Positions 10,747-61,299 of a stretch of DNA of 64,000 nt are shown piece by piece. The translations under genes and the position numbers were made by a program. Position 1 is the stretch's first letter; the number at the start of each line of letters is the position of its first letter. The notes beneath the pieces were generated by a model. It did no database searches, was not told the origin of the DNA, and saw only the letters and a list, made by a program, of their open reading frames with translations. Origin of the DNA: Raillietiella orientalis (Eukaryota); contig JAYWIR010000041.1 of assembly GCA_036172245.1 (NCBI GenBank), positions 248,001-312,000 on the forward strand, given 5' to 3'.

Positions 10747-13700
10747 ATGAGCTCTTGGATATATGTTGCATTCATCCTTGCTTCCAGTGACTGTAAAATG
10801 GTATATGAAAATCTCGAAGGAATGGTTCTAGCACCAGAAATGGCTGATTTAAATGCTCATTATGGGTATCAGTCTTCACAAAAATTTGATCCTAAAGGAA
10901 TGGATTATGTGTATGCCATAACAAATTATTTCCTGTCAATATTCACACCTCAGAAGACTTATCCTGCAATCTATAGTAAGCACATTAAAATTAACTGAGA
11001 AAAGTTAATATTTTTACATGGTGCATGTAGTGTATTTTAATTTAAGGTGGTGTACACTTGTGTTTTCATGTATTTCAAATTTTAATCTAGTTTTTTGTTA
11101 AATTTAGATTAAGGTAATAAGAGCATATTAAAGCTTTGTTGCACCCAAAGGTTGGATCAGTTAGTTATTTCCTATTTCAAGAAGTACATGAAAGCAAAAA
11201 TAGGGCAAAAATGAAATTGTCAAAAGAAAATAGGTTTTAGGTTACTGGATTTGAAAACTTGGGCATTGTTTATCCATTATTACTGATCCTTTATTTATAC
11301 ATATGGATTTTTTATTTGTTAATTTATGTATAATTAATAGTTAATTTAATTGTTTAAGTGGTGAATTAAAGCACTTTAAAGAATTTGAGTGTTCTTCAGT
11401 GCTGTTGGAGTGCAGTTTTTTACTTTGGTACTTATCTGATATCTTCCCTGATTCATATTTGTGTTCACCATTTTCTATGCATACTGCAACAGATAACAAA
11501 CCTGAAATTAATATCTAATATTAATAGATAACAATTTCACATTTCTGTGTGATTTCAAGTGCGTACTAATATGTACAGACATCATATGTTCTTATGGGAA
11601 AATTCACTGAGAAAATTCTGGTATATTTAGTGAGGCAAAATGTACTTAAATGAGATGTTTTTTTCATAATTTTCTTGGGTTTACATTGGTGATAGTTAAA
11701 AAGCATTGAATTAAAATTCGAGATTTGCAAGCAACACAAGCACGAAGGTTAAAATCCTTTGTACATTTATTTTGCAAACTGGCTTTTGGACAAAAGCTTA
11801 GATTTGTAATTTGAAAGATAGATTATAGTTGAAATTAAAACATTAACAGTGACATATTACAACATTGCTTATGTATTGTGCAGAAGTTATATTTTTTTTC
11901 CAAATTTTAATCATTATATCTATATGGAAAACTGTTGTCAAGTTTACAGTAGCAGAAATATGACTTTATTTTATCCCATGTATTTCGAGTTAAAGTTGTG
12001 ATTCATTGACTCGGTATGCTTTGAAAATTGAAGTAAATTACGGATTTAAGTAAAAATTATGTCATGGAAAATTTTCAAGTAGAACAGTGGGAATCAAGCC
12101 CAGAATCATCACCACAGATTGTGCAAAAATTAATCAGATTATAAGATCATAATGTGCTAAGCTATAACAAAGTATTATCGAATTTTGTATTTCAACTGAT
12201 ATAGTTTGCAACTTTAACAGCAATTGATTTGCTTTGTTTTATGCATCCCAAAATGAAAATTGTTTCTGGATTATGAAATTGATAGTTACTTGTGATATAA
12301 AACTTAATTTTAATTCATTTAACTAATTAGATATTGGATCAGTTGTTAAATAATGAACTAATGCAGTTATTTTAGAATGTGTATTAAAAATGCACTGTTT
12401 CCTTTGTTCTGTCTGTTTGTTATTGCTGTTATTGGCTTTGTTTTTTGTTCTATATATTTTATAAATAGAATATATATTCTAGCATTTTCAGTTATTTAAA
12501 AAAGTATGCCACTTAAATCAGTTTACTCATTTTATTGTGGTCAAACATGTTTAACTTAGTAAAATTTTGTACAATTGTTGATTATTCCTTTCATGTGTTG
12601 CTTTTGTTATTACATATTGCCACATTCCAGGTTTTGTTAACATCACAACAGATGGAAAAGTATTGTTTGAAAAAGATTGGAATGAATACAGGAAACTTCT
12701 TTTCTATTATGTTGGTGTGTTTGTGTTGTCAGTATTAGGATTATGTTTATCAATATCATTGTTCATGTGTGGTTGGGTGTTTCTCTGCTGTCGATGTGCT
12801 GGAAAATGTGGTCGTAAAGCAAGACATGTTAGAGAAAACACATCTAATTTCGTTAAAGCATTGCTTATTGTACTTGTAACTGTAATTGCAGTGATATCTT
12901 TGTAAGTAAGTCGCAGTAATATTAGCATTATTTTATTTGATTCTCCAGATTTGGTATGGTAAGCGCATTTATAACAAATCAGTATTCATATGAAGGATTT
13001 AATGAACTCTTGAATTCCTTGGATAGTGGTGTATATGATACTAAACTGTATCTGCAAAATATAAAATATGTGAGTTCCATTTCCTATGATAATCTTTCTA
13101 TTTAGTTTTCTATACCCACCAGGAAATTAACAAACTTCTTGTTGATGATCACAAAACTTTTGAAGAAGATCTTTTTTACATTCTGGATAGTAAGTCATAA
13201 TTTTTTTTTTCTTTTGTAAATTTATTCCAGCATAATGTCATAATAAATCAGAATGTTCTTTCTGTTTAATTCTATGAACAATAATTATTCCAATTAGGCA
13301 CAGGAAAAATAATTAAGAATCGTCTAGCAAATGTAACAGAGGCCCAAGCAGTCCATAATCTGACCAATATAGTTCTCAGCCTGGAAAAAATGGAAACACA
13401 TTTAAGAACAATTGATGTCCTCACACGGTCTTTGAAGGAAAATAGTAATCAGCTGGATTCATGTAATTATTTGAAACTTCATTTACATGACTTGATTGTA
13501 TTTTTGCAGCTTTGGCATCAGCTCATGAAAGATTGACGCATATCTTTTACGAACACTGTGTAAAAAAAAATTGCACTGATCTGATTAACAACTACCGAAA
13601 CTTATCAAACGTTCATTTGGAAAAGAACTTTAAGCAGGTTTGCATGTTTCAAAATTTATTTTATCATACTAAAAATTCCTATTATTACTGCTATCAGTGG

Positions 13701-15970
13701 ATGCATAGCCATTATCCTAAGGTATCTACAACAATTATTGAATGATGTTGGATTCAGTAATATGTAACTTATTGTATCTCTGCTGTATTTCAGCTGCCAC
13801 AGGTTGACCGTATTTCCAATCGAATTTCGTTTTTGCTGTCTAATAATATTGAAGATGATATAAAAGCAGGGAAAATGGCTTTGGATAGCATTGATTCTGA
13901 GTTGCAGTCAGCTGTCAATACATACATTCCTCAAATTAAATCTCAGATTTTAAAAGCAGGAGCTGTAATGTTTGAATTAGCAAAAAATATTAGCATGCTC
14001 CTAGATCATGTGGACTTTCGTGAGAGTGAACAAGGGTTGTTCCAAATCCGTAAAATAGCTTCCCCATATTCTCAGTACAGGTATGTGCCCTAATTATTTG
14101 CTGCTTTATTGCAACGTAAATGCATTAGATGGTATATTGGATTAGCTATTGCTGTTGTATTGCTGCTGATCACGGCATGCTTAGTGATAGGAATTATGTA
14201 TGGATACTGTGCTCCTCGCCCTCTTGATAAATATTCAGATCGATCATGCACAAAGTTCACTGGAGGGAAATGGCTGCATGGGTAAAGAGTAGCAATAATT
14301 TTTTAAACTTTTGTAGTAATTATTATTCTTTAATCATTCCTCTTTAGAGCAATATATCTTACATTTTTTGCTTCACTGTTTGTGTTGCTCCCAACGGTAG
14401 TGTTTTTCATTGTTGGTTCTGTGGTGAAGCACAGTGTATGCAAAGACCTTGAGAATCCACGAACTGATTCCCCCATTTTGAATGAAATTGATAGAATGCT
14501 TCATGATGGAACTTTGCTGAAAGCAAAGATGCCCTTGCATAGTTTGCCAGATGTTCTTCTTATGTGCCATCAGAATGAGAGCTTATACAATATTCTCAAA
14601 TACAGTGTACCTGATTTACCAGATTTTATAAAGGTGCATCGACAACACTTTGATGTCAGCCATCTCATCCAAGTTCTTCATAATCACATTCAGATACAAA
14701 CGAATATCACGTTGCTCCCACCCAATACCAAAGAAAAGCTTCTAGATTTAGCCAATTCTGGATTAGCCGAGCTCAATTTAAGTGGATATACCACTGAAGT
14801 ATGATGGGTTTTTAATATATTAATTGACTAAAGTAATTCTCAGCTAAAACGCCAGTTGTTGTATCTTAATTTGGATAAGATTGTTTTTGATTTACGGACA
14901 ACGTCAAACCAGCTGAACAAATCTTCACCAGAATTAGCATCTTCATTGAGTCGCGAGGCATTTTTTCTTCAAGAACAATTAATGCTGATACGAAAAATTT
15001 TAAGAGATATACTGCAATTGCAAAATGCAACAGATTCACTCTTAAAGGAATTGGCAGTTAATCCTTTGGCTTTTCGTAATAGAATAGAATTGCTTACAGA
15101 AATGACAGAAAGGGCACAACAAGTCCTTGTGACCAGAGGTCAAATTCAGTTACAAAAGGTTGGAATCAGTTCATAAAATTTAATTTCGTTTTACCTTTGC
15201 TGTTAAGTTGGCTGAAGAGTTTATTTTGGATCTGGAAACAAAAATAAGTCAACATGTGGACCTATTAGATGTTCAGATACACCATGGAATAGGTCGCTGC
15301 TGGCCTGTCAGTCAAGCGTATAATTCTTCTGTGATGACTCTGTGCAAACGTGTTATTGACCCTTTTGTAAGAAATGCTGCATGTATAGAACTTTATTGGT
15401 AATGTTGTTTTTAGAATGGATTCTGGGCAAGTGTCGGTTGGTGCTATGTGTTTTTCACATTTGCTTTATTTGGTGCCATTCCACTAGCATCTGCCTTCCA
15501 GACCTTTCAGAAATCTACAGAATACTCGTGAGTTTTACAATGATGTGTTTCTTACACCTTCATTTCTCTTGTAGAGGAGATTATTATTCAGATATCAGGG
15601 ATAATATTATGCTTACAAAGTAAGTGGAGACTTACTGCAAAATAATAATATTATATGTTAGTGTGTCTAGAGAGAAGAAAAGAAGAAAAGTTAAGAGAAG
15701 AAAAGTTAAAGTTGCTGAGGTTCCTGATGGCTTCCCTCATTACACTGCCCCTCTGTCCCCACCCATTGGAAATTGTGAACCTTGTGAATCTGAGCAAACC
15801 AGGTGAATGTACCTTGATTAAAGTCTTCATAAAATACGTTTATTTTCCCCTTTAAGGTATGACATCTCATTTGAAGAAGCTCCACCTGAATATGGAAGTC
15901 TTTCTCAACGATTTCAAAAAGAATATGACAGGCCCCCACCATATTATTATCCGGGACCTACGAAAATTTG
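10747..15970 (+). CDS. prom: Prominin-like pentaspan membrane glycoprotein, multi-exon
   Basis: Signal peptide MSSWIYVAFILASSDC; FDPKGMDYVY; TM followed by Cys-rich CCRCAGKCG; SVCKDL; IGRCWPVSQAYNS..LCKRVIDPF|NGFWAS; C-terminal DRPPPYYYPG; GT-AG introns join the ORF pieces (first coding exon 10747-10975, next 12631-12901, stop 15968-15970). Confidence 0.92.
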
Positions 15971-17889
15971 ATCTCTTATTTGGAGTTTGCAACTGACTGT
16001 TCTTTCCTGTGATGTATCCACTAGTATACCATTCTAATTTTGTAAGGAATTAGAAATGATTTTAAAGAAAATACTTTTATATAATTAGAATATTCAGAGT
16101 CTTGCCATTTTATAAATAGAATCATAATATATATTATTTATATATTGTACCTGATTATCTTATTCATTTTTCATTCTTCAGGCAAAGTGATTTTATTACG
16201 TATATTACTTCACTTTTAACTTTATTTTTATACTTCTTATTTAATGTTTCGTATTCTTTTAGAAAGACTTCCATAGCATCAGTAAATGCAAATGAAGATT
16301 CAACAAATACAGTTTCCCGGATACTTTCTTTTTTTTTTTCTTTTCTAGCTAAGTTTGCAAGTTTGCTATTCATTAAGTTCACACTTCATGAAGCTACAAT
16401 GGTTTCATGCGTTTCCATACTTATGTGTTCATACTTTTATTGAACAAAATCTTCATACGATTGACATTTATGTTGCATTCTGCTATATGCGAAGTTTGGC
16501 TTTCATTTTTATTTGCCTATCAGTTGGACTTTCAGATGTTTATTTGATTTTCCTAATCTCCGTACATGCAGACTTCAAAAACAATGTGAGACAACAGTTC
16601 AATTCAGCAACATACTGACTAGTTCATCAGTATTATATTGCAATTTGTGTAATACTTTTTAATATTTTTGCTATTATTGGACATGAGTATGTTTTGAATC
16701 CATCTGTTTGCAAAATGAAATTCTTACAGGTTTAGAAATGTGAAGTCACAATATCATGCCTATTTACAGTCAGTAATAATTTAAAGGTTAATTTGATTCA
16801 GGTGGTTTTCTAGATCTACTTCTTTTTGGAAAAATTAAGAAAGTTTTATTTATGACTCGAAAGTCAGAATCCAGGCACTGGAAAACGGATTTTTTTTTTT
16901 TTTTTTCCATGAATGGAACGTTTTTTCTATCATTTTTGTTATTTTTCTGCATACTTGTTTTCAGGATTTCTATGATTTCATAGTTCTATGATTACTACTA
17001 AATTAACCCATTCCCTAACTGAGAAATCAAGAAAACTATTGGATGGATAAGTATGCAGAAAACTTTACAGGTATCACATAGATGGTGTCTCTTGTAGCCA
17101 CCTGATTCCAGAACTATTATTTGTATTTTTTATTGATTGTGTATTGAACCACCTGAATGGCATGGAAGTATCTAAGTTTTCAATTTATTGAGGGCTCCAT
17201 TATGCAAGTTCTGACAAAGTGAGCAACAAATGTTCTTGAGAAAGTCGTGTTGGGCCACTGTGTTGGTCAGATTCACTAAAAATGTTTCATCTACCAAGTC
17301 ATGTTTAAACATATTGATACTAATGAGTGTGCTGTTGATTTATGAAGAGAAATGAGGCAGCCATTTCCAAACTAAAGTAGCAGGTATTATTTCAAAAATA
17401 CGCGACAGTAATTTCAATTTGAAATTGGAATACAAAAATTAACTTGTGATGGTATTGTACGGCAAAATATTTAAATTGCACTGAAGTATTCAAAAGTCAC
17501 AAGAGTGGTAAAACCCGTTAACAGGAATTATATACAATATCTGGAAAGGAAAAGTAAATATTGTCTGTCTAATTTGAAACGAAACAATAAAAAAAAATGC
17601 ATTACGAATCTCCCATGTAGAATCCAAAGCGCACTAAAATAGTTTTTCACTCTCTTCTCAACTTCAGTTCACAGTTCCAGCTAAAATTCTTAGAACAAGG
17701 TTTTAATGAAATCTCGAACGTTTTGTTGAAACTTTCACTTAGTTATTATTAAGTATGTAAGTGTATCACACATGCAAACCCTATTGATAAAAGTAAGGTT
17801 GACTTTTAATAGCAGGTGTGACACTAATTCACTTGCATAAACAGCAAGGTGCTCTTACAGTTTTGTAGTTTTCTGTAGGAGTTTTGTAC

Positions 17890-18670
17890 GTTAAATACTG
17901 TGCCCTATTGGTATGTGATTTACATTGCACTGCCTGCGTATGAATGGGATTTTTTTAAAACTAACGATATTATGCACTTCGGAGTTCTTAAGAAAAAAGT
18001 CTCTAAATGTCTTAGACACCTGAAGAGTGAGAGTTTCAACGGAGACACGGATTTCTTTCAGATAACCATTTGCAAGGTGCATGAGCGCTGGGCATTCGAT
18101 TAATTTGGTATCGAGCGCTCCTGGAGTACTTTTCTCTTTCCACAGATCCACATTAAATAGTTGATGCTGACGAACGAAGTTTTAAAAAACCAACATTAAT
18201 TTAAAATTAAAATTTTACAATACTAACAAGCCATACAATCTAATATCTACCATTAAATGTTCATTTTCTTACACATGACAATTATTTTATTAAACCCATC
18301 AACATTCAACATTAATATTAATTTCACTATTAAAACAAAACATATTTAATACTTCTAAAATATTCACTTAAATATTTTTTAGAATTTTTAAACATCATCA
18401 TAAAATGAAATCTATCAATCATTTCATAATCTAAGCCCCAATAAAATCCAAATAAACATTAACCTAAACTTCCAAACTAACAAAGCATCCCTTACCCAAT
18501 CACATCCTCCAATACAGATTAAAGTAAAATATATAGCTATCAAACTTACTCTCCAAATAAATCCATAACTGAACGCTACTATAACAGAAAATTTTTCTAA
18601 TCCATTAACATTCCCTTTACACTATACTCCATTCACATCCCATGACTCATTAAATTAACCCATTTCCTAA
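17890..18670 (-). mobile_element. LINE ORF2 apurinic-endonuclease (APE) region, partly C-to-T hypermutated
   Basis: Minus strand with plausible spacing: SWDVNGV (WNVNGL), FLL** (FLQE), VDGFN (GDFN), DLWKEKSTPG, KEIRVS, SEVHNIV (SDH). Confidence 0.65.
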
Positions 18671-21479
18671 CAATTAAATTAACACTACATAAACATTAAA
18701 AAATTTTCTATAAATCACCCACCAGGCACCTTTCTCGTTCTTATGACGCGCTCTGCATAGACCTTCATTGAATTGAATGGCCTTTCCAAAATTCCTATAT
18801 TTGCCTATAAATGCATGCCTATAGACGAACCGTGTCCTAGGGCAGCAGGCGATGCCCCCTTAGTGATATGTTTGTCTCGTTGCTGTCAGAAAGCTGGAGA
18901 AAACAGGAGCCTGGACTTTTGAGGGGTGCTTTTTCTAGCGGTGGGACAGCCTCCGCTCCTTCAGTGGCGGACCGTTTACTCTGGGGCCGGGGAGACGATC
19001 AGAGTTTTTCTCCGTATCCTGGGCGAAGTGCCTGAGAGGGATGACAGAACTGCTGCCGCCTGAAGGGTAATTCTAGTCTGCAGTCGCCATAGGAGGACGA
19101 ACAGGAGCAGGATGAGACGACAGAGACTCAAGGGAGTGGCAGCACAGGATCTCTGGGGCGCGAATCCTGATGGAGGGCCGCTTCTTGCGTTGCGTTAATA
19201 TGGGATTATCATTACCTCAGATGTCCTGAGGCCCCAAGCACCATTCCAGAAGATTAGGCGATGTCTCATGATGCAGTATAGTTATGGAGTAGGTACATTT
19301 CAACAAAGAATCATTGAAAATCGCACTCTAATTTTCCTACTCTAATCACCCAACAGAATGTGAACCAACAGCACCCTGGTCCTTGGTTGCACTTGGAACT
19401 TTTATGCTTTGCGCTCTACATTCACGTAGTCAGATAAATTCAGCTAAATAGAACCGCCCCGAGATTGTGCAATGACTTACTTGCACATTATAACGATCAT
19501 TACATTATCCCTGATATCTAAATAATTATTCCTGAACAAGAGGAATGTGTCATGAGATGACTGGCAACGTTAGATATGATTCTGACATAGCTGCCATCAC
19601 ATTCCAACAATTCAACTTGATCGTAGTGTTTCGTACGAAGCTCAAGTTTAAACTAAAACCTGAAAAATGATTTCGAAGATCAGTGCAGCATTTACAGGTA
19701 ATTCTTTATATGTTTCTTTATAGACCGAAGGGGAATCTGCTTGAAGGTAAATCTCGGAATATTAACCATTCATTCTTTTTTCTTGGTTGGAAATACGATT
19801 TCCTTCTCGTTAAAAGGCCATGGATGTTTTCCTTAAACTAAACAGAAACAAAAGTTTGTAATACATTAGTGCCTGATATAATCGAACAGCTCGCATAGGT
19901 TTTGATTCCCATTACTGCTTATTGGTAAAATAGCACGCATAATGGAAGCAAGGATGACTCATCTTACTCGTAAATATGCTGAGTATTCATTTTCCTCATC
20001 ATTATTTTCACTAAATGGGAGTAAATGATCTCAACATCTAGGAGTAAACGTATTTTTCGATTTTTCAGCTATTTTTAGCTATTTTATACGCTAAAAACTC
20101 AGATGACATTCTCTTGTATTTGATTCTAAGCTTTGATCATTCATTCCTAAGAAAAAAAAGAAAAAAGAAAAGAAAATTATTAAAAAATTTTGCAGTTCGA
20201 AATTATAGTGTTTTTTATTGAAAAAACATGAACATGGCGTCCTAAATAAATCAAAACTCACCTTTGATGTTTTCTTTTCTTTTCTTTTTACTAATCGCTT
20301 TTCTTTTTTCATTTTCTAATACTCAGAAATTATGAATGTTTTCACGTTTGGGAGTTAACTTTTTTAATTTCTTTAAGTATTATCACTGATTTCAAGTTAC
20401 AAAGCTTTTTTTTCTCATGTGCATCTAAACATCTTTTGCATGACTTTGTTTTGATTCTTCAAAAGGAAACTCATTACTTTTATTTAGAATCTTGAAAGGG
20501 AAAACACCCCTTTCTGAGGTGTGTGAAGGACAGTCGACCTTGAATTTTCATTAATGTGTTAACACTGAAGTCCCTGGTGCCTATTACCCCAACGACTTCC
20601 AAGGAATTTTAAGAATAGCTGATACGTAAGAAAAATCCAACCAAGATTAATTCGATTACTTTAGTGCACCATCTCAGTTTAAAGATGAAAGTTAACCAGG
20701 TATCAGATGGTTATAAGAATCTATAGAGAGGATATTTAATTTATTTGAAGGTGGTTTCTCAAAATGTAAATCAACACCAAAAAACGAGCAGCATCGAGTT
20801 TAATTAGTTCTTTGCAGCAAAGTTCTAAGAACCTCTCTTATAATCGAACTCTCTCTTGATACAAGATTGATGGTAATTAGAACTTTAAACTCAAAAGTTC
20901 AAAGGTTTAAAGAGATTTTACTGACGGAAAAAATAGCGATAAAAAAATGATATACAGAAAGCTTCAAAATCGTGTGCTATCACTACCACAAATTTTTTTT
21001 AATGTTTTTTTAAATTCGTTTTGTGGTAGAGAAATGTGTGAGCATGTTCGTATTGATTAGAAAGGAGTATTACTTAGAAAAACAAATGACCACATAAGGG
21101 CATTTATGAGATTTCGTTTTTGCTTTCGATGCTTTGTTCTTTGAAGTTACACATATAATGTATTGAAATGAAATGAATTAACCGTTGGTTATAAAATAAA
21201 GATCTCCAAAACATGTGCTCAAATATGTTTAGCAGTCTTTTAATATTGCTGCAGTGCCTATATTCAAATTTAATTGAAAGGCAACAGAAAATTCTTGATT
21301 TTTTCGACCCTATATTCAGCTGCTCCTGCCTTGGTGTGCTTAGATTTTTATATTCATGTACACGGAAATTATTTCCATTAGGAAAATCAAGATTGGCCTC
21401 GTAATTGGTGGTATGATTCATGCGTGTCTGTAGTTTGTGGGTAGACTGCTCGAATCGCATGCAAAGGATGAGTGGAAGC

Positions 21480-22080
21480 GCAAAAAAGGTGTGCCAGTCA
21501 TCTTTAGATTAGATACGCTTTACGATATAGAGTCCACAAGTTGCTGGGAAATTTTCTATAATCTTCAGAAATCATTTTAAGGAATAATTTCTGAAAGACA
21601 CGCCAACTCCCATTGCATAGGTTGCACTTTGCTGAAAGAGCCAGACGTGGGTCTCGTTTTACTTTGCCAGCATCACGGCGGGCTGTAACTCATGGCGCAG
21701 ATCGGCACTCCAAAATTCAGACAAATAATCTGAAGAGCATGGAATCAGCACGTATTTATTGAATTGTAACCAAATTGCGATGTGCCGGGTTTTTCGAACC
21801 GCTCTGGGCAAATCCAGTAGGATATTTAGGCCTGTTGTAATTGCATGTTATTCAAAGCATTTGAATGTCAGCTGCTAATTGTATCATGCTCGTTCGCTCC
21901 AGGTTTGCATGAAATTTTTGGCCCTTTTTGGCCTTCACGGAATTTATTTCTTTGTGGTAGCCGGGTTTCCATGGTCAGTTTCACGTAAGCCGTTGTATAG
22001 GAATCTGAGTCATGTACTAAGTGCAACGCGAAGTATCAGTCCTTGACATATTTGCGTTTACTTGCAATAAGTCCGGTCCT
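21480..22080 (+). mobile_element. Degenerate LINE RT N-terminal fragment
   Basis: TAGCNS, IFRPVVIACYSKHL (YRPI..K) and VLDIFAF (LD..KAFD) in order on +. Confidence 0.5.
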
Positions 22081-23456
22081 GGAAGTTGAAAAATAAATTA
22101 AGCTTCAGAAAATTAAAAGCAATTTTGTACAAAATGGTGGTGGTGGTCAGTGGGTGGTCAGCCCGTGTCCCGCGGTAGGAAAGGATCTTAACAAAAATTG
22201 TTGGGCTTTTTTACATTGTAGCTGGATAATTATTTTTTATTCCATATTTTTTTGTGGCAATTAAAAAATCGTGGAGGAGAACCATAAATCGCAGCAAGTA
22301 CGATCAAAATCGTTTTGCGTTAGGGTTGTTTTTGAAGTCAGCACCTTGTTTGCAGTTGCCAGAGAGTACCATACAGTACCAAAATCATGCTTTCTAATAA
22401 TATGAAGTATAGTTTCATTATTTCATAGTTTAGTTGCCCCAAGGGTAGTGTATATTGTTTACAGCTCTTAAGCCATATAGCTAGGTTTGTTTCATCAGTC
22501 ACTGCATCTGAATTCTGCAATTCAAGGATTACTTGGTTAGAATATGTTTGATAGCCATATTATATGCATAAGCAAATAAATACGTTGTTGATTAGAATAA
22601 AAATGTGGTTTTTGTTTGCTTCCCATACAACATATAGAATAAACTATGTAATTACAAATAGTACATGGTACTAATGGCTGAGTGCTGATCATCAATTAAG
22701 CCTATACCTAATGATATAGATGATAAAATCAAGGCTAATATTCCCATGAAACTGTTTTATTTCCGATATTAATATACCTTGTCCAAATGATAACGTAATG
22801 TAATTGCTATCTATCCTTGGTTTTTCTTCCACAAGATGCATGCTTCATACGTAGGTTTTTTTTTTTTATCCCTTAGAGTTTGCTTGTTTGTTTATTTTAT
22901 CCTTTTTTGTATTTAAATGCCTGAATTTTTTTTGCAACATTCGAGCTACATCCAGGTTTTAATGTAAATAAACTTATAGCAGATTGTTCAAAATCAGGCA
23001 CTTACTATGCTCAGGCATTACCTTTATGCTATATATGTTGATCAAAGAAATGAAGGATTCATCTGAATATTGAGAACATTCACCATAGTTTTCTAATGTC
23101 GGAAGGATATTTAATTATTGTCTTCTAGATCACTGGATATTTGTTTATGATTATTTCAATAAATTGAATTTCGGAAGAATTTTGGTTTACACAGATATTT
23201 TATAAACAGAATTTTATTCCATTGCATAGACTTTCGTATCCAATAGAAACATTCCTACCCCGAAAATTTATGCTACTTTTGCTTTCAAGAAAGTCATGAT
23301 AATGTGATCAGGGCTTTCAGTGAAGAACATACTCGATTGATAGCTTATTTATGTTAGGTAATTTGCATGCATTTCTAATTGTTTTTTGTTTTTTTTAGCA
23401 AATTTGAGTTTTACTACCATGCTGTAACCAAAGACTTTCTTTAATCTCAAAGAACA

Positions 23457-26400
23457 ATGGAAGATCCTTTTTTTAATTTTGGAGATGAAGTGTACAGAAT
23501 GAAGAAACATGGAGATATTGAAGTTGGCATTGTTTCAGAGAACGCATTAGATGTGCATTCAGATGCAGATAGTGACTATGAAAACCTTAATTTAAGAAAA
23601 GGGTTTGTTAGAGTCTCTTGGCATCCTCGTGGAGAGCAGGAAATCATCAGTGAAAAAGAGGTTAGTTTGCAATTGGTTTGAATGGAAAAATTCTTTGAAA
23701 GTGATTTGGAAAATCAATTTGTGCTCATATTTGATGATTATGCTTTAAGTTCTTAATCTGTGTATTTATCATCAAATTAAAAATCTTAAGCATTAAATAA
23801 GGATTGAGTATTGTTATGCATATGTGTAGCTATGTAATTGTGAAATACGTTTCTATAATGATTACGGAAGTGTTTTGATATACTTGTTCTACATATCAGT
23901 GCTGTTCAAATTTCTGGGTACAAAAAATGTGTACCACTCTCAGATAGTTCATCAAAATGAAGTGAGAATGCTTATTCTGAATATTATAGATGCATATATG
24001 CTGCATAATTTATTCTCTGCATTGTTTGTCTCTTCATTACTATAGGAACATGACTTTCTCACAGTATTTTGAACAAAGCATAATACTATTTCCACATAGT
24101 TGCTTATGGAGTTCTCGGATCACGAATTTATTTTAATCAGTATAGCTTTATGTCCTCTGAAAACATTATATTTCAATATTGCTTTACTGTTTGTAAACCA
24201 TTACCTGTTAATATTATTTATTCATATTTTGCTAGTAGTATTGCTTATGCCTGCATGATTCAGGTAAGCATAAGCAATTAAAAGGTGATCAGCATGAACT
24301 CATCTCCTTTTTTATTTAAATGGGTTGAAATTTCTTTATGAATGTGGAATCTGTTATGGTTATCACAGTTTTTTTGGACACTTTGCAAAACAATCCCATT
24401 GTAATGCTTTTTAATCTGGACAGTGATTTGTAGTCACATATGTAAAAATTAGAAACTTATTTCATAAAAGTAAATCATTCAGTAGAGATGCTTTTTCAAA
24501 GTTAAGAATTTGTCTAACGTTATTGTTTAAATAGATTAATTTAGCTGATAGAGCATTAATGCCAGGTCATGTAGTGAGAAGGATTTCACCAAAAGGCCAA
24601 CAAGGTCTGTGTAAAACTGTAGATGTTGAAGCAACTGTTAAGATATATGGAGCTCCATTTGTGATACGTAATGTATCCAGAAAGCATTTACTTCCATTGG
24701 TAAGAGTGTGTTTATTGGTTTTGTGGACATTTTTTGTTTTCTTACATTTATGTATTCTTTATTTTTAACACTTCATGCCTTTACCTTATTAAATTATGAT
24801 TCATGATATTTTCTGCATTGAGTAGTAAAGATGACATTGTTAATGCAAAAAACGTTGCCAGTTTTGCCAGTTAATTCACGGAATTCTATTTTAATTTATT
24901 TCTTTCCATAATTGAATACTATTTATTTAATCAGCGTGTTTTAAAAAAAATCCAGTTTCACAAGAAACTAGAACTAGACTTAGAACTTGCAAGAAACATT
25001 TTTAGAATGTTGAAGCCTACACAGTCTTCTTGAAAGATTCCTGGATTGGTGAAGTGATAAATTTGGAACGAAAATTACTTCTGTCATTTTCAAATGGATC
25101 CAAATGCATTTTAAATGAAGTTTGTGCTGGAGGTTTGACTGATGTGAAGGTTAAGCGAGCAAAGGTTAGCATTTTGTTATATTTAGACTTGGCATTTGTT
25201 ATTGTATCGTAGTTACAGAATCCAATACAACTTTCAAGTTTTTGTTAATTTAGGAACACTTGCGAATATAAGAATCATGTGTCCATATTTGTTCCTAAGC
25301 TTCTTAATGAATAAAAAAATAATGTAATTATTCCAACTTAATGTAAAAATTCTATTAAGTTATGTAATAAGGAAGTTACCTGTCCAAGCTACATTCCAGC
25401 ATGTTACATGTCATCTATCACATGCAACATGCTGGAATAATAAGTCTCTTGTACAAGTGAATTGTAGGAAAGAAATCATAAAGAAAATAGTCTCTTGATA
25501 CCATTTCTCAGCAAAATTCAGTTCGAAAATTGTGCATGTTGTAGCAAGTTCTCTCTGGAAGATTTATTAAATGATATTGAATGAATAAGTTAAGTGTTAT
25601 GTTTAATTTATTACTTTTATTTTTCTGTTTGTATTCCGAGAAGAGAAAAAGATTCTTCATCTCATTCTAATAAACTGTTTGGGTTGCTAAGAAAATGCAC
25701 TGGGATTGTCATATTTTAAGTATTGCATGTGATTTGTCCTAATTCATTATCAGATGTTATGTTTATATTAGATGAAATTTACCATGATGCTCATTTTTAC
25801 AAATATATGAAAAGAATAGCTAATAAAACATTGGTTTAGCATTAACCACTTTCATACTTGGTTGTGTGATGGTGAAGAATTCTTATGTGGAAATCTGTGA
25901 ACTGATAAGAGCATGCTATCTTATGTTTTGTATTTTATTTTATTTTTTAAATAAATATTAGAGATTATAGTACCTGTGTCGTTTATGTGTTCTGCTTTTC
26001 AATTTTACCTTAATTTTCTATATGTGTGTTTCACATGTTATTCACTGTAATGCTTTGTATTCCTAAATGACGATGATTTTATATTCCCCATGCAATAAAT
26101 CATAATATAAAATGGAAAAAAAAACGTGATTGTTTCTGGGACTGCTCTGTAAAATAGAAGATGGATGGTAATCAATCGAATGTAACAGTAAATGATATTT
26201 TTCTCTATCATTCAGCACAAATCAGTGAATACAATAGAACACTAGTATGTTCACTGATTCACAATTTCCATAACATAGGAAATTTTTCGTGGATAGATGT
26301 ATAGTTGTAGAATTTGTTGAATTTCAGTAGGAGTTTATAATCTGAATTAAATTTTGGCATTGAATTTTCAGTAAATTATAATGTAGTTCGATTTTTAGAA

Positions 26401-29400
26401 TGCAGTTTCTGCATATCCATTCCATCCTGGGCAAGAATTAATAGGACCGTATAAGAGTTTTAAAAATGCTCATTGGATTAGTCGTTCTAAGGAACTGAGA
26501 CACATGAAAGCAACAAAATTGGTGAAAGTAACCGTAGAAGAAGTAAAAGTTGAACAATGTAGAGTTAAATGGTATTCACAAACTTGTACTGATGATCAAG
26601 AGATCCCATCTGTGCAACAACTTCCTTCTACTATGGGATTTGATGATTTCCAAAAGTATGTATTTTGTCCTTTGATCTTGTGTAATCCATATGATCTAGA
26701 GTAAAACTTTTGAACTACTACAAGTATAGTTCGCTGCAGATTGGAGATAAGAATTTTTATGTTATTCGAAGTACTGACAAAATAGTGCCATTAGATCAGT
26801 GGAAAAAAACAGTGAATCTTTCTGCCAATGTTGATTCTTCAACAGCTTCTTTGAAGGAATCAACAAATGAAAAACAAGGTTTCTTCATTTATTTTGTTAA
26901 TCGCTACTTCTCATTAACAGCCAAGTTAAGATCATCTCATCTGATATCAGAGATGGTTTTCAATTTGCATGTGCCACATTAAATAATGTAGGCTCTCTCT
27001 CTTAGAAATATACCACACGGTAAACGAATTTTTAAAAATCGACAATGAGTACACAAACAAAAAGACCAAAGATTCAAAGTCCAAGGTTGATAAAAATTCT
27101 TTACAAGCAAAAACCAAACTTTTGGAATCATTCAGAACTCAAAGTAAGACTGTCTCGCTTCATTACGGAATGAATTATTTGGATAAATTTCAGGAAACAA
27201 GAATAAGGGATCACAATTAACTTCTAAAAAAATTGCTGCAAGAAAAGAATTGCTAAAGTTGAAATCAGAAGCTTCAGTATTACGTGACTATAAAGTAGAT
27301 GAAAAGATTGTAGTAGAAACCTTATTCACCCAGTCAAAAGTGAAAGTCGTTTGGCAGGTATGCCATTGTGCAATTTTAGGGAAAGCTACCCATGCTACAT
27401 TTTATGCATTTAATTAAGCAAACTTTATGGATGCTCACATTAAATAAGTTTGAGATTTAAGTAAAATTAATATCTGAGATTAAAAATAATTGATATCTTA
27501 TCTCTACATGCTATGCATTAATCATATGATTATTGCATAGCATGTAGAGTTTCCAAATTATTAAAATAGCTCAGATTTGTTAGGAATCTTGTGTTGTGTT
27601 CTTGTACTCCAATTCATATCTTAAGCACTACAGCCCTGTGCACTTGTGCATGATAACTTAACGTTTAAGTTATGATAAACCCTTAATGATTTACCTTAAA
27701 GGTGTAAAGACTATCCTTACACCTTAGGTGCATAGTCTTCTATGTAATAGTAATTGAACTTCATATGAACAGTATGAATGTTAGTTACTTTAGAAATTAA
27801 AAACAAGCATCATGGAAAGAATGATGAACTACAGCACAAGAAGTTTATATGAGAAAAAAATATTGTACTAGAATCAAGATTATGATATTTATCAGATTTT
27901 TAATATGCAGAGCATTATAACTGGAATATATTATTGAAAACAATGAGAATATCTCTTGTATATGTTGACAGAAACAGCTGTGAAAACTCTTTTTCTCTTT
28001 ATTCATTATCATTTATTCTAACTTATTGTGTACTAATTCATTGTAGGATGGTACAGTAGAAGAAAATGTAAATTCTGTTGAGTTAATCCCTATTAACCAT
28101 CTTGATGAAAATCAATTTTTCCCTGGAGATTTTGTTGAGGACAGTAGGGAAACTGCCATGAAGCAACAGTATGGAGTAGTTCAAAAAGTGAATCATAAGG
28201 AGAGGACTGCAATAATCTCTTGGTTCAAAGCATATGATGATGAAAAAAATCCTCAGTAAGTATCTGCATGCATTTAATAAATCTCTCTTTACACCCAGTC
28301 TTTTTATATGGACAATTTGTTACTGAGAATGTGCTATGTTATATTACATATAAGATTGTACATCATAGCATTGCATTAAACATTAGCTTTAGGGAAGAAA
28401 CAGTAGCACAGGAAATCTGTTAGGATTATGTGAATTTATTCATTAAATTTCATCTTTAATCATACACACTTTATCAAGCATATAATCTTTTTACTAGGAA
28501 AGAGTATATGCTTGATAAAGTGTATTAGTATATAGATAAAGTAAAACATGCATGATAAAGTTATGTTAACATTTAGGATGACTTGATCATAATGTGATCA
28601 GTAATCAAAGGTAGTGCATTAGTTTGATTTTTCATCCTTTGTTTGCTTGTGAAGCTGTAAAATAAACTGGACTTGGTGCAAGAATATTTTCAGTGCTCTC
28701 TATCTGAAACACATTGTCTGAATGAAATAATTAGCTCTTTTAATGTTTCAAAATTTTATATGCTATTGGAAAATCATGTGTTAAGTTGAGAATTAATTCA
28801 GCAGATATTGGTTTATGTATTTGGTTTTTAGTTGAAAGCAAATGAAGTGTGTATGAACGTTTTCAAGTTTTACTCTATTTTGCATGCACTCTTTGCATAT
28901 ATTCATTATAGAATAATGATCACAAGACTTTGGTGAAATGGACTCATTACAGTGTTTAGCTTTTTTGTTCCCTTGTAAATAAGAGGGTTTTAAATGCATC
29001 TGTGAGAATGATTGATTTTGAACCACAGTGGCAGACTTCTGGAATTAAAATTCTTAGTAAACCTTTGCCATTTTCCTGCTGTTTCATACTTAACTTTTGA
29101 TGTGATGTTGGCTAACGGAAAAATCTAGTGGTAGAATGTCTGTCTAGAAGACATTGAAACAAAAGACCCGTAAAGAAATATGCATTTTTTTTTAAATTTA
29201 TATTGTTACTTTGTTTTGGTTTTCAATTTGTTTTTTAACTGACTTCCTGCTTTAATAATTCAGGCCCCTATTTCTCAAAGAAGAAGAAATGAGCGTTTAT
29301 GATATTAAAGAACATCCTGATATTGCGTTTAGAGCTGGGGAAATTGTCATGAGAATAGGAAATTTTGAATCTTTAGTTCCAAATTTCAATGCAGGTCAAG

Positions 29401-31909
29401 TAATTGATCTTCACCCTTCAGGACAGGTATAGCATTTATTTTATATCATTACCTTATATATATCATTTATTTTAAAAGTAGAAATGAAACACGCCTATGT
29501 TTGTTCTGAATCATATGAATTGAATTATTTTTTTCCTTGTTACACAGATTCAAGTATGGTGGGCTTCTGGTCAGATTTCCTACTGTTATCCTCAAGATCT
29601 TTATAAAGTAGGTGAATATGAATCTGATAAAGGTGAATTATGGGATTATAGTGACACCACCAACAGTTCATACATCACTGAATCCATTTGTTCAGTTGCA
29701 GGTATTCAAAGGTATTCAAGTATATCATTCTGTTGAGTAAAATTAATGAATTAACAATGGAGTCACAAAGATCGTGATTATGACATTTGAAAGTTATTTT
29801 GTTTTAGCACAGTTGATGAGAATATGGTGCTTAAGGCTGTAGTACCAGTATTCCAAAATATTGAGTTCAATCTTGCTGATCTGGAATCAAATTTCAGAAT
29901 TATTCACGAACACTTGTTTTTGTATGTGAAAAAAATAATAGATGTAGTGAAGCAATGCAGGTAGGAATACTGGTTATTCTCTAATTTTGAAAGAACTACT
30001 GATTCAGCAACTCTTGCGTATTCAAATTTTGCAAAGCCTGTGTTCCAAATGCCCTTTTTAACTGTCGCTTCTCTGATAAAAATTAAAGAAGCTTGCATTT
30101 ACTTCGTACGTGTACATATAATCACAACTCCTAAATCACAATGGAACTATATTTTATTCTGAAAATGCTAATCGTTTTCTTCTGCAACTTTGTTTTGTAC
30201 TATTGCTAGAATTATTACTACTAGATTATTATTATTATTACACTAGCAATTATTACTAGAAATTACGCTTTAGTATTTGTATCAAATTAGTATCAAAATT
30301 GACTGCTCAAAAATTTTCAGGAACATAAGTGATCTCCTAGGCATTGCTTCTTTTGATGATGGCCAGTTTGAAGGATTTGCAGAGCATGTTAAGAAAGGAA
30401 GTAAAAATACTCATCGGCTTCTATGGCATTTACTTCAGTTCTTGAATAAAGAAGGAAGTTCCCTAAATCCTATAGTTCACAGTAGTCCAAATGTGAACAG
30501 TAATTCATTGAAGACAACACAAAAAGCAGACAATACATCTGTGGAAAGTGATCAAAATGATTACAAGCAAGATAGCAAAGGGAATGAAATTGATTTATTA
30601 CGAAAAGTGTTTGCTTCACTGAAAACATATGTTCAAACCATTGAGATTGCTATAATGAAAAGATTTTGCAACGATCCTGACTTTTCAAAAGTTTTCAATA
30701 CAACTTCTAGGGAAAGTCGACCAGCTGAAATCTCAAAAGAAATAACCTACCTTGAAAATGTAGGTGTTCAAGATTTAGATAATGATCCTGTACTGATTCA
30801 GAGTAAGTATTCTTAGATGAATGACGGCAAACTAACGTATTTTAGCTTTTCAAATTATTGATTCTATGCCTGAATCTCACAAATTTAAAATGCAGCCACA
30901 CTCCACTTGTACAAAGGGATTCAGAAATGCTGTTAAGAGGGAGATTGAATTGCTTAAGACGTCTCTGCCTAATGGAATCATTGTAAAAGCTTGTGAAGAT
31001 CGTATGGTATGCAGTATTTGTATTATTTTGTGGTTATTTGTTTTCTTTCTTTCTTTCCAAGGATCTTTATTCTGCCATGATTATTGGACCATCGAAAACT
31101 CCTTATGAGGATGGGTTATTCTTTTTTGATTTTCATTTTCCTGAAGGTTATCCCCAAACTCCACCACATTGTCATTACTGGAGTTATTGTTCAGATCGTC
31201 TTAATCCAAATCTTTACACTCAAGGAACAGTTTGTTTGAGTTTGTTAGGTACATGGGATGGAAGGGGATCAGAAATGTGGACCGAAAATTCCAGTCTCCT
31301 TCAGTTACTGATATCAATACAAGGTATGCATCAATGTTTTTGATAAATAATTTGAACATTCAAGGCCATCAAATGTTGTGTAGGACTTATTCTGTGCAGT
31401 GAGCCGTATTTTAACGAACCTGGTCTAACAAAATTCAAAAGTCATCAGTTGCAACAAGAAAATTCCCGTATCTATAATGAGATGGTTGTGGTGAGATTGG
31501 CACAAGCAATGGCTGCTATTGCATTGAATCCACCAGAAGTTTTCAAAGAGGAAGTGAGAAAACATTTAGCTGCCTATGCAAACCGGTATGAAACTCATTT
31601 TGTACAGATAAGCTGGTTAACAGATCTGCAATCCACATTTTACTATCAGGTTTTTGAAGAGAGCACAGTCATATATAGAATTATCTGCAAGATTTGCAAA
31701 TGAGATTGAGTCTGAAATGAATGATGGTAAGTGCCTAGCAAATCTTAATGAAAACTGAAATATGAAAATTAGAGTTAGAAACTCCTGATTTTCCTCTTCT
31801 TCCTGGATCTAAAGGGTTTTGTTTGAGTTTAGAAAAGAGTCTTTCGGAGTTTAAGAAAATTCTTTATGAAAAAGAAGCTGCATGCAGCAAGAATTGTGAT
31901 ATAAATTAA
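23457..31909 (+). CDS. UBE2O: E2/E3 hybrid ubiquitin-conjugating enzyme UBE2O, multi-exon
   Basis: [55 protein letters not shown] domain [35 protein letters not shown] (catalytic Cys), C-terminal [16 protein letters not shown]; stop 31907-31909. Confidence 0.96.
25393..25438. repeat. Short near-perfect inverted repeat in UBE2O intron
   Basis: attccagcatgttacatg ... catgcaacatgctggaat. Confidence 0.8.
27502..27549. repeat. Near-perfect palindrome in UBE2O intron
   Basis: ctctacatgctatgcattaatcat|atgattattgcatagcatgtagag. Confidence 0.85.
28466..28523. repeat. Inverted repeat (19-bp perfect arms) in UBE2O intron
   Basis: acactttatcaagcatata ... tatatgcttgataaagtgt. Confidence 0.85.
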
Positions 31910-42474: not shown

Positions 42475-43716
42475 TCACTTGAGTGTTGGATTGTTGCAGA
42501 CTGTGCGCAACCAATTTTTTGCATTCAGCAGGAACACTGCTAAAAGAATCAATGTCCCTCCTAGGGCACTCAGATAACTGAAAGTTTCCTGGAAAATCAC
42601 GATGCCCCAGATGTACGTGAAAACGATATTGCTCGTCTGAGTTATGGCGACGGTGCTCGAGTCGGCATAACGACATGCAAGTGAGGAGAAGAGCTGTCCA
42701 AGCAACGATCCGGCAGCTATTAACACGAACCAACCCGCTTCGTGCCAGTCTTGAGGTGCTTTCAAAACGTTCATCTCAAGGGATGCGATGCCCAACACAA
42801 AGGTATTCGTAACTTCGTAAGATAGCACGGCGACTAATGGGTCCACATCCTTCATCTGCCTAAGTATCACGATAATAACGCCATAGGTGAGAGAATCCAC
42901 TAAACTGCAGATAACTCCTTTCAAATGAGCAGCTGGGGACAAGTCGCTCTGAGAATGACCGAACAGAAAGGCAGGTTTGGCAGCCAAGGTAACGCCTCCC
43001 GCATTTAGAAGTATCACAATCACGTGCACAATGCCAAAGGGCTCCTTCAGCATGATTCGAGCTACGACGACAGTGAACGCAGGGTACGAATAACGGATCA
43101 CAGTCGATTCTTTCAGAGGGAGTTCTTGAAGAGCAAACAGACCACAAATGAAACCCAAAACTCCCAGAACGCTCCTAGCAATCAAGTGTTTCCTGAATTT
43201 TTGGGGGAACGGATGTTCTTTCTTGTAGATGATTATCGCTGCTGCTGGAATGCTGGACAGCAGTCCACGGTAGCATCCCACCGTGAAGGGCGAAAAATGC
43301 TCGAGTTTTTTCACCGACACCGAAAAGAACGAGAGGGAAAGCGCAGAAAGCAGCCCGAGCAGAACCCCCAGATGGGAACTGGAAGGTGGATGGTCGCGGG
43401 AATCCTCTTTCGATTCTGCGGGAATCCCCTTCGAGGACAGCACGGGATCGGCTGGAGGATCAGCGCCATCGGGGTTTGCTGAAGTGCCGACAGGAGCGGC
43501 AGGGAGACTCTCCATGACAACAGACACACGGCAGTCAGCCCGTGCCTCTCGATTCGAGGAGGTGTGGGTACTTCCCCGCTTATTTTTCTGACATTCCGGT
43601 CCAGGGGAACCCCCAGCTTTCTGCGAATGATTTCCAGGGTCTTCCGTCGGTCGGTTTCGCCTCCATTTTAGAGCTGTCGTTTTCGAGGAGACCGTCTTAT
43701 CCATTACGTTCCCCAT
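42475..43716 (-). CDS. SLC35G1: SLC35G1-like EamA/DMT transporter, intronless 413-aa ORF
   Basis: Uninterrupted ORF with about 10 hydrophobic segments in two EamA repeats (LIARSVLG..LPLKESTVIRYSYPAFTVVVARIMLKEP; SNIVFTYIWGIVIFQET..LGGTLIL); AATAAA on minus near 42405. Confidence 0.9.
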   Translation of the reverse strand: MGNVMDKTVSSKTTALKWRRNRPTEDPGNHSQKAGGSPGPECQKNKRGSTHTSSNREARADCRVSVVMESLPAAPVGTSANPDGADPPADPVLSSKGIPAESKEDSRDHPPSSSHLGVLLGLLSALSLSFFSVSVKKLEHFSPFTVGCYRGLLSSIPAAAIIIYKKEHPFPQKFRKHLIARSVLGVLGFICGLFALQELPLKESTVIRYSYPAFTVVVARIMLKEPFGIVHVIVILLNAGGVTLAAKPAFLFGHSQSDLSPAAHLKGVICSLVDSLTYGVIIVILRQMKDVDPLVAVLSYEVTNTFVLGIASLEMNVLKAPQDWHEAGWFVLIAAGSLLGQLFSSLACRYADSSTVAITQTSNIVFTYIWGIVIFQETFSYLSALGGTLILLAVFLLNAKNWLRTVCNNPTLK

Positions 43717-59030: not shown

Positions 59031-59401
59031 AAGTTAACTTTTGCATAGTTGCACCTACCCCCTCAAGCAACCAATGCAAGTAACTAGATTCATCTCTTCT
59101 ATCTGTTCAAATCAGTGCCTGCTGCACTGTAGAGCACTGTATAACGAAGAATACGAGGCATTAGTGGGTAACGGAAACATGGCAAAGTTCGAAAAATGCG
59201 CCCTTGAGGAGCGGCTCGAGGTAACACAACCTTCCTATTGGCCAAAAGCTGTGCGCTACTGTTCGGTCGGCGCTTCTGCAGCGCGGATCTCATCTCTATT
59301 TAAGTAGCAATCCGGGAAAATGCTGTTTGTCCAGGTGTGACGTTGGGTGTGTGTATCGTACGTAGTGTGTATAGTACGCTCAGAAAGTCTAGGAGGGCGC
59401 G

Positions 59402-61169: not shown

Positions 61170-61278
61170 CTCGGAACCCAAACGACACAATGGCGTCAAG
61201 TTATCTGCCGAAGTATTCGAACCCGCGACGCATGGTGCCACGCGCGGAAGCCTTAACCACAAAGCCTCCGACGCGGGC
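61170..61278 (-). mobile_element. tRNA-derived SINE-like head, copy 1
   Basis: Minus strand gcccgcgtcggaggctttgtggttaaggc...gggttcgaatac (Pol III A- and B-box-like); homologous to 62555-62657. Confidence 0.7.
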
Positions 61279-61299
61279 GTTTTAAAGCCCCTCTTCCTG

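What the first reader, a model, noticed from the sequence alone, without database searches (positions are those of the whole stretch)
18181..18720. Sharply bounded C-to-T hypermutated tract on the SENSE strand of a LINE endonuclease region
Seen: in 18181-18720 I count 14 G versus about 117 C on +, while both flanks have normal G. The tract and the G-normal 17890-18180 read as one minus-strand APE domain (SWDVNGV, FLL**, VDGFN, then DLW..P, IRVS, SEVH), and the expected Q codon of LQE appears as TAG (CAG>TAG). Known: CpG decay hits both strands and only CpG, ADAR gives A>G, and APOBEC3 editing of first-strand cDNA gives G>A on the element's sense strand. Inference: near-saturating C>T on the sense strand points to a cytidine deaminase acting on the element RNA, on second-strand DNA, or on a transient ssDNA patch. 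This could be an undescribed anti-retroelement editing activity in this invertebrate.
Basis: partly seen in the sequence, partly recalled or inferred. Interest (0 to 1): 0.8.

Follow-up and report, generated by a model that had tools for sequence, protein, structure and literature searches.

The report
One-strand G-to-A converted DNA tract
A 545-base stretch of otherwise ordinary non-coding DNA between two animal genes has lost almost all its G on one strand, as if one strand's cytosines had been deaminated, but no test shows that it lies in a LINE element.

Summary
Window 18181-18720 has 14 G against 117 C, and both flanks are normal. The true bounds are 18180-18724. The chance probability is 4.5e-38 at the window's G content and 3e-24 at the local one, and the five longest G-free runs of the 64 kb all lie inside it. 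With G read as A, its dinucleotides and k-mer complexity match ordinary DNA of this window treated the same way. So it looks like normal complex DNA in which about 84-88% of the + strand G became A (C to T on the minus strand).

The LINE endonuclease reading is not supported. Pfam, PDB, a 1.84-billion-protein HMMER search, a word-index search and the ESM Atlas gave no endonuclease or reverse transcriptase hit. Without an element there is no "sense strand", so the classical polarity (G to A on a + oriented retro-copy) is not excluded.

The tract lies between a Prominin gene and a UBE2O-like gene. I could get no genome, reads or second copy, so the direction of change, its context and the assembly itself remain untested. 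Best reading: a real one-strand deamination footprint (about 0.5). An artefact or an intrinsically skewed sequence remains possible.

The parts
18180..18724 (.). The tract: 545 nt with 14 G, 119 C, 236 A and 176 T on the + strand (on the minus strand: C-depleted, T-enriched). It has sharp edges on both sides and normal sequence complexity.
17891..18181 (-). No family, structure or protein relative was found, so it is probably a chance open frame.
   Evidence: Its T phase bias (15/34/32) is what any open frame shows.
18725..19260 (.). The G+C-rich right flank (about 55% GC; G156/C129; CpG o/e about 0.7). The composition changes exactly at the tract's right edge. There is no ORF of 110 aa or more, no Pfam hit and no Rfam hit.

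Best explanation
The tract is real DNA that began as ordinary, complex, non-coding sequence. In one event it lost about 84-88% of the cytosines of its minus strand to thymine, so G reads as A on the + strand. The even density and the two abrupt edges point to a discrete piece of single-stranded DNA, about 545 nt long, that was exposed as a whole to a cytidine deaminase (AID/APOBEC type or similar) and then copied into duplex. I see two routes. (i) An edited single-stranded or cDNA fragment was inserted or copied in during repair; if it was a retro-copy in + orientation this is the classical G-to-A polarity (about 0.3). (ii) A chromosomal single-stranded gap or resected end was edited in place (about 0.2). 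Shown here: the composition, the edges, the normal complexity, and the absence of any LINE or other coding signal. Inferred: that the changes were G to A at all (there is no reference copy), the enzyme, the route, and that the assembly is right.
For: G is depleted while C is intact, and A+G is 45.9% against about 50% in the window. Collapsed dinucleotide counts lie close to collapsed background: AC 52 vs 52.9, CA 58 vs 55.5, TA 73 vs 69.0, TC 36 vs 35.7; the largest gaps are AA 119 vs 147.5 and TT 67 vs 54.7. The Markov log-likelihood sits at the 12th percentile of background windows, which is inside the range. There are 324 distinct 6-mers against 298.5 +/- 27.6, and the zlib size is 170 against 168.9 +/- 4.9, so this is not a satellite. 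TRF finds no array of note: one 15-nt row in the tract. The edges are sharp and the 14 retained G show no gradient. The tract is unique in 64 kb. A and T are not depleted, so an A-to-G (ADAR-type) process is excluded.
Against: No unedited copy, ortholog or read could be obtained, so the direction, type and context of the substitutions rest on composition alone. No target-site duplication, tail or terminal repeat marks an insertion. By my recollection, a density of about one change per 5-9 nt is far above known chromosomal clusters. The 14 retained sites show no motif (minus-strand 5' neighbour T/C 7, G 5, A 2). An earlier follow-up of a similar one-strand tract in a bacterial assembly suspected poor assembly.
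Confidence: 0.5

Rival explanations
1. One reading: the tract and its left flank are one LINE endonuclease domain on the minus strand, edited C to T on the element's sense strand by an undescribed anti-retroelement deaminase.
For: The quoted strings exist. The distance from SWDVNGV (about 18650) to SEVH (about 17960) is about 230 codons, which by my recollection is the size of such a domain. The G+C-rich block upstream on the minus strand could be a 5' UTR.
Against: No endonuclease, reverse transcriptase or ORF1 signal appeared in any search: Pfam; 21 of 21 short minus-frame pieces empty while the positive control was found; 1.84e9 proteins; PDB; Atlas recognition 1249, no usable hit. The strings sit in three frames. 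WD-for-WN and DGFN-for-GDFN cannot arise by C to T. There is no codon periodicity. A LINE that keeps its 5' end but lacks the reverse transcriptase is the opposite of the usual 5' truncation (established knowledge, recalled). No ORF of 110 aa or more in the window has a TE domain: 0 of 68.
Confidence: 0.07
2. Assembly, polishing or library artefact: the tract exists only in one or a few damaged or chemically converted molecules (for example a one-strand deaminated or bisulfite-type template used in gap filling or polishing).
For: The size is close to one short-read fragment, the conversion is nearly complete and context-free as chemical conversion would be, and no read support could be checked. 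A similar tract in another genome was tied to a badly assembled region.
Against: The window has no N and both junctions are seamless. Only 1 of 14 retained minus-strand C is in CpG, unlike methylation-protected sites. By inference, a consensus from reads of both strands should outvote a single converted molecule.
Confidence: 0.17
3. Intrinsic composition: the stretch never had G on this strand. It would be an unknown element with built-in skew, or a nuclear copy of strongly skewed organelle DNA, inserted between normal flanks.
For: Sharp edges fit an insertion, and the right edge coincides with a jump in G+C.
Against: No frame longer than 69 aa is open under the invertebrate mitochondrial code. 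There is no tRNA, no Rfam match at E<=1, and no repeat structure or low complexity. By my recollection, 2.6% C on the G+T-rich strand is below any mitochondrial genome I know.
Confidence: 0.1
4. Slow mutation in place: a persistent R-loop or leftward (antisense) transcription from a promoter in the G+C-rich block keeps the minus strand displaced, so its cytosines deaminate over evolutionary time.
For: The polarity fits. For leftward transcription the non-template strand is the minus strand, which shows G>C (119 vs 14) and T>A (236 vs 176). The adjacent block has the opposite skew (G156/C129). A UBE2O-like gene lies downstream on +.
Against: No promoter or transcript is shown. The block's CpG o/e (about 0.7) is no higher than the window mean of 0.78. 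The UBE2O coding start is about 4 kb away. The far (left) edge is as sharp as the near one and there is no gradient. By inference, a gradual process should leave a decay and many other substitutions.
Confidence: 0.08

Closest known systems
APOBEC3-type G-to-A hypermutation of retroviral or LTR-retrotransposon cDNA, fixed in genomes (Knisbacher & Levanon 2016, PMC4866542; passages read)
   Same: It is a strand-coordinated transition of one type, clustered, with a G-to-A reading on one genomic strand. An inserted edited cDNA would explain the sharp edges.
   Different: No retroelement is recognisable here, so polarity relative to an ORF is undefined. Conversion is about 85% with no visible dinucleotide preference. 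That paper found its 19 invertebrate genomes devoid of such editing and used C-to-T clusters as the negative control.
Kataegis / strand-coordinated clusters from deamination of chromosomal single-stranded DNA (PMC8850194 and PMC4728370, listings and abstract starts only)
   Same: Both show single-strand polarity, a length of the order of a resection or gap tract, and a location in non-repeat DNA.
   Different: By my recollection, known clusters carry a few to tens of changes per kb in TpC context and are mostly somatic. This tract has about 60-105 changes in 545 nt, no motif, and sits in an assembled genome.
Repeat-induced point mutation (RIP) of fungi (recalled, no call)
   Same: Both give C-to-T of one polarity per event, sharp ends at the edge of a unit, and a length of several hundred nt.
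   Different: RIP needs a duplicated sequence, and none is found in the window, plain or collapsed. RIP prefers CpA, yet 5 of the 14 retained C are in CpA. The genes here are of animal type (Prominin, UBE2O).
ADAR hyper-editing carried into DNA by retrotransposition (recalled)
   Same: Both give dense, sharply bounded transitions of one polarity.
   Different: The direction is wrong. ADAR depletes A (or T) and enriches G (or C); here G is depleted and A and T are not.
AID/APOBEC-like deaminases of invertebrates (Liu et al. 2018 PMC5956068; Krishnan et al. 2018 PMC5889660; listing and abstract starts only)
   Same: They provide candidate enzymes outside vertebrates.
   Different: I know of no genomic footprint ascribed to them, and the proteome of this organism could not be searched.

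Membership tests
LINE (non-LTR retrotransposon) apurinic-type endonuclease domain | Sequence match to the Exo_endo_phos families or to solved LINE endonucleases | tested here: not met
   Pfam gave 0 families for 3 of 3 minus frames at E<=1 and for 5 of 5 short queries at E<=10. PDB phmmer at E<=10 gave 0, 1 and 5 hits, none an endonuclease. Heavy C-to-T change would weaken any match inside the tract, but the unmutated 96-aa flank fails too.
LINE (non-LTR retrotransposon) apurinic-type endonuclease domain | Reverse transcriptase domain downstream on the same strand | tested here: not met
   Pfam found nothing in 12 of 12 minus-frame 400-aa pieces over 13100-17900 at E<=0.1, while the Prominin read-through control was found at 2.8e-17. 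One search was also empty, but long read-through queries lose sensitivity: a 4666-aa query missed the Prominin exon.
LINE (non-LTR retrotransposon) apurinic-type endonuclease domain | Catalytic motifs in order in one frame, allowing for C-to-T changes | tested here: not met
   The strings lie in frames 2, 0, 2 and 1. WD in place of WN and DGFN in place of GDFN are not C-to-T products (motifs recalled from memory).
LINE (non-LTR retrotransposon) apurinic-type endonuclease domain | Many copies in the genome, a 3' tail and target-site duplication | not testable with these tools
   No genome is held. There is no second copy in the window and no flanking direct repeat or tail.
Deaminase hypermutation of retroelement cDNA (APOBEC3 type) | Differences from the source copy are almost all G-to-A on one strand | not testable with these tools
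   No source copy was found. Composition alone fits.
Deaminase hypermutation of retroelement cDNA (APOBEC3 type) | Dinucleotide context preference of the edited sites | tested here: inconclusive
   Only the 14 unconverted sites can be read, and they show no motif. Near-saturation hides any preference.
Deaminase hypermutation of retroelement cDNA (APOBEC3 type) | The edited sequence is a retroelement and G-to-A lies on its sense strand | tested here: not met
   No retroelement signal was found on either strand. The + frames of the tract are full of stops, about 18 in 180 codons of one frame.
Kataegis-type chromosomal ssDNA clusters | Strand-coordinated C-to-T / G-to-A changes | tested here: met
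   G14 against C119, with A raised and T and C normal. The direction is inferred.
Kataegis-type chromosomal ssDNA clusters | Moderate density and TpC context | tested here: not met
   Implied conversion is 84-88% of sites, and 7 of 14 retained C have a 5' T/C. Typical densities are recalled, not taken from a call.
RIP | A duplicated partner sequence and CpA preference | tested here: not met
   There is no partner in the window: the best collapsed local score is 72 against a shuffled mean of 58.1, sd 8.4, max 85. 5 of 14 retained C are CpA. The rest of the genome is not testable.
Nuclear copy of mitochondrial DNA | Open frames under a mitochondrial code, tRNA or rRNA | tested here: not met
   The longest frame under code 5 is 69 aa. 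There are 0 tRNAs and 0 Rfam matches at E<=1. The mitogenome itself is not available.

The most novel reading that the evidence does not exclude
An animal outside the groups known for APOBEC3 editing carries, in heritable DNA, a 545-nt stretch deaminated on one strand almost to saturation and without a retroelement around it. That would be the first genomic footprint of a DNA cytidine deaminase (AID/APOBEC-like or of a new kind) acting on nuclear single-stranded DNA, or on a captured cDNA, in such a lineage. It would come with a density and a lack of context unlike any described enzyme footprint.
Probability: 0.3. Interest if true: 0.75.

Novelty: new variant of a known kind. Interest (0 to 1): 0.45.

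Why it matters
If it is real and heritable, the tract shows that one-strand enzymatic deamination can rewrite hundreds of bases of germ-line DNA in one step in an animal lineage where genome screens reported no such editing (PMC4866542, passages read). It would also give a direct handle, through genome-wide three-letter alignment, for asking whether the invertebrate AID/APOBEC-like genes (PMC5956068 and PMC5889660, abstracts only) mutate DNA in vivo. If it is an artefact, it is a useful warning about a class of assembly error that leaves perfectly plausible-looking sequence. The specific claim that made it exciting, sense-strand editing of a LINE, does not hold on present evidence.

Tried and rejected
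- Whole genome: none is held.
- Sequencing runs for 17300-19700: none was listed, so no reads were laid.
- Copies in the window: the repeat finder found none touching the tract at 40 nt or more. In plain blastn of 17300-19700 against the rest of the window, the only hit inside the tract was 21 nt (18651-18671 vs 16999-17019, E 0.011). G-to-A-collapsed blastn gave short hits only, best 43 nt. Collapsed Smith-Waterman over 14000-23000 was no better than shuffles. The 21-nt word occurs only at those 2 sites.
- Relatives elsewhere: the search for related loci with the flank ORF gave 2 loci in viral contigs, 22-24 residues at 50%, taken as chance, and 0 of 212 candidate stretches in metagenome contigs. 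A purine-degenerate 42-nt pattern of the tract had 0 matches in metagenome contigs. Plasmid and phage blastn gave no match.
- The scan's own notes: nothing on this genome or on look-alike stretches.
- Protein searches: the two phmmer hits, P0001 (7153 aa, 8 stretches) and P0002 (364 aa, 5 stretches), are internally repetitive proteins matched by summed weak repeats and were rejected as relatives. The Prominin exon found no longer relatives through the word index, so the gene model was not built.
- Mitochondrial reading rejected.
- Satellite or low-complexity reading rejected.
- ADAR reading rejected on direction.
- CpG-island promoter idea for the right flank: not supported by CpG o/e.
- Codon-periodicity test: negative but of modest power. 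The real exons used as controls gave only p=0.005-0.05.
- Long read-through Pfam queries proved insensitive, since a 4666-aa query missed the Prominin exon. The scan was repeated in 400-aa pieces with a positive control.
Full report
**Observation.** Window 18181-18720 holds A234 C117 G14 T175. The 540 nt on the left hold G104/C95 and the 540 nt on the right hold G156/C129. The last G of normal spacing is at 18179 and the next is at 18725, so the tract is 18180-18724 (545 nt: A236 C119 G14 T176). GC skew in 200-nt windows falls to between -0.68 and -0.82 inside the tract and lies within +/-0.26 in the windows clear of it. The chance of 14 or fewer G in 545 nt is 4.5e-38 at the window's G fraction and 3.1e-24 at the lower local fraction. 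The five longest G-free runs of the whole 64 kb (104, 80, 56, 50, 49 nt) are all inside the tract, and the next longest is 46 nt. No other 300-nt stretch of the window is comparably poor in any base. Both edges are abrupt, and the 14 remaining G show no gradient towards either edge.

**What kind of sequence it is.** C (21.8%) and T (32.3%) are ordinary, and A+G is 45.9%, so the excess A is about what the missing G would give.
- I read G as A in the tract and in the rest of the window, on both strands. The tract's dinucleotide counts then lie close to expectation: AC 52 vs 52.9, CA 58 vs 55.5, TA 73 vs 69.0, TC 36 vs 35.7, CT 30 vs 33.1, AT 78 vs 71.6, CC 31 vs 23.9, TT 67 vs 54.7, AA 119 vs 147.5.
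- Its second-order Markov likelihood is at the 12th percentile of background windows, inside the range.
- Its complexity is normal or slightly high: 324 distinct 6-mers against 298.5 +/- 27.6, and a compressed size of 170 against 168.9 +/- 4.9.
- Tandem Repeats Finder reports only one 15-nt row inside it.

The tract therefore looks like ordinary complex DNA of this genome in which 84-88% of the + strand G now read A, which is the same as C to T on the minus strand. This is an inference from composition. I have no unedited copy to align.

**The LINE endonuclease reading.**
- Pfam finds nothing in the three minus frames of 17000-19400 at E<=1.
- Pfam also finds nothing at E<=10 in the unmutated 96-aa open frame 17894-18181 or in the three frames of the tract.
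- That open frame is not affected by the conversion. It should be the easiest part to recognise if it were the last third of an endonuclease.
  - phmmer against 1.84 billion representative proteins gave 2 hits. Both are internally repetitive proteins matched through 5-8 weak stretches, not endonucleases.
  - The ESM Atlas gave no usable hit, and its recognition value (1249) is in the range of shuffled sequences.
- PDB phmmer of the three frames of 17894-18720 at E<=10 gave 0, 1 and 5 weak hits (NADH dehydrogenase 4L, phosphopantetheine adenylyltransferase, a methyltransferase), none an endonuclease.
- The word-index search of the frame with SWDVNGV and VDGFN among longer proteins gave nothing at E<=1.
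- A LINE should carry a reverse transcriptase downstream. All 21 minus-frame pieces of 400 aa covering 13100-17900 and 18700-22300 were empty at E<=0.1, while a read-through Prominin control in the same call scored 2.8e-17. I repeated the scan this way because the earlier long read-through queries turned out to be insensitive: a 4666-aa query missed that same Prominin exon.
- None of the 68 open frames of 110 aa or more in the window has a transposon domain.
- G on the minus strand, which C-to-T change would leave untouched, shows no codon periodicity in the tract (40/40/39). The test has modest power, since real exons gave p of 0.005-0.05.
- The deviations at the most conserved words (D for the catalytic N after W; DGFN for GDFN; motifs recalled from memory) involve codons without C, so editing cannot explain them.

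I conclude that a LINE is not shown. With it falls the statement that the edited strand is a "sense" strand.

**Context.**
- Prominin exons lie on + at 13761-14093 and 14334 to about 15158.
- A UBE2O-like gene lies on + from about 23.56 kb (SH3-A, weak), through 25.0 and 26.4 kb (tSH3-B, 2.1e-12), to the UBC fold at 30987-31343 (5e-20).
- The tract therefore lies between two genes of animal type, at least 3 kb past the last recognised Prominin exon and about 4-5 kb before the UBE2O coding start. That it is intergenic is an inference.
- Its right edge coincides with a rise to about 55% G+C. The CpG o/e there (about 0.7) is not above the window mean of 0.78.

**Other readings tested.**
- Mitochondrial origin: no frame over 69 aa under table 5, no tRNA, and no Rfam match at E<=1.
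- Satellite: excluded by complexity.
- A RIP-like process needs a partner copy. None exists in the window, plain or collapsed, and 5 of the 14 surviving minus-strand C sit in CpA, the context RIP removes first (RIP preference recalled).
- ADAR-type editing has the wrong direction, because A and T are not depleted.
- Methylation-protected bisulfite-type conversion would leave CpG sites, and only 1 of 14 survivors is CpG.
- Contamination: no match in plasmids or phages.

**Mechanism.** The even, near-complete conversion with two sharp ends is best explained by a discrete single-stranded DNA of about 545 nt that was exposed as a whole to a cytidine deaminase and then copied. I cannot separate two routes.
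- The first is an edited cDNA or single-stranded fragment inserted or used as a repair template.
- The second is a chromosomal gap or resected end edited in place. A break at the left edge with resection to the right would expose the minus strand, which fits the polarity. The expected mirror tract on the other side is absent: 17641-18180 has G104/C95.

No target-site duplication, tail or terminal repeat marks an insertion. A slower process, a persistent R-loop from leftward transcription out of the G+C-rich block, also fits the polarity (the minus strand shows G>C and T>A). It does not predict the sharp far edge, and no promoter is shown. An assembly or library artefact cannot be excluded, because no reads could be obtained.

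**Comparison and novelty.** The nearest known things are G-to-A hypermutated retroelement copies in vertebrate genomes and strand-coordinated clusters from deaminated single-stranded DNA. Knisbacher & Levanon (PMC4866542, passages read) found their 19 invertebrate genomes devoid of such editing and used C-to-T clusters as the negative control. AID/APOBEC-like genes do exist in invertebrates (PMC5956068 and PMC5889660; listing and abstract starts only). The tract meets the strand-coordination criterion. It fails or cannot be tested on the others: element identity, context, density and source copy. If real, it is a new variant of a known kind of footprint. The lineage of the organism is not known to me beyond its animal-type genes.

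**Limits.** Everything about the direction, context and age of the changes, about copy number, and about read support is untested. No literature search was made for "G-less" natural elements, so I make no claim that none is in print.

Noticed in passing
window 16999-17019 and 18651-18671: A G-free 21-nt word is shared (20 of 21 identical) between the tract and a site 1.65 kb to its left on the same strand. These are its only two occurrences in the window at up to 3 mismatches. The similarity does not extend in collapsed alignment.
   Followed up: partly
window 46584-46858 and 61455-61706: Three collinear direct-repeat segments (46-98 nt, 70-83% identical) lie about 14.86 kb apart. This suggests an old segmental duplication or a dispersed element in the G+C-rich part of the window.
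   Followed up: no
window 61204-61281 and 62583-62660: A 78-nt direct repeat, 90% identical, with copies 1379 nt apart. Rfam gave no gathering-score match anywhere in the window.
   Followed up: no
window 42475-43716 (-): An uninterrupted 413-aa open frame with two EamA transporter domains (2.2e-28): an apparently intronless solute-carrier-like gene.
   Followed up: no
window 59393-59776 (+): An open frame with a core histone fold (6.6e-24), lying in a G+C-rich region with overlapping open frames on both strands.
   Followed up: no
window 14001-28000 (+): A method note. A 4666-aa read-through translation with X at stops failed to report the Prominin exon, which scores 1.9e-16 alone and 2.8e-17 in a 389-aa read-through. 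Very long read-through queries to the Pfam tool therefore lose real hits.
   Followed up: yes
window 18160-18179: Just left of the tract's edge, G falls at every third base for 20 nt (gtt gat gct gac gaa cga ag). No frame or family is attached to it.
   Followed up: no
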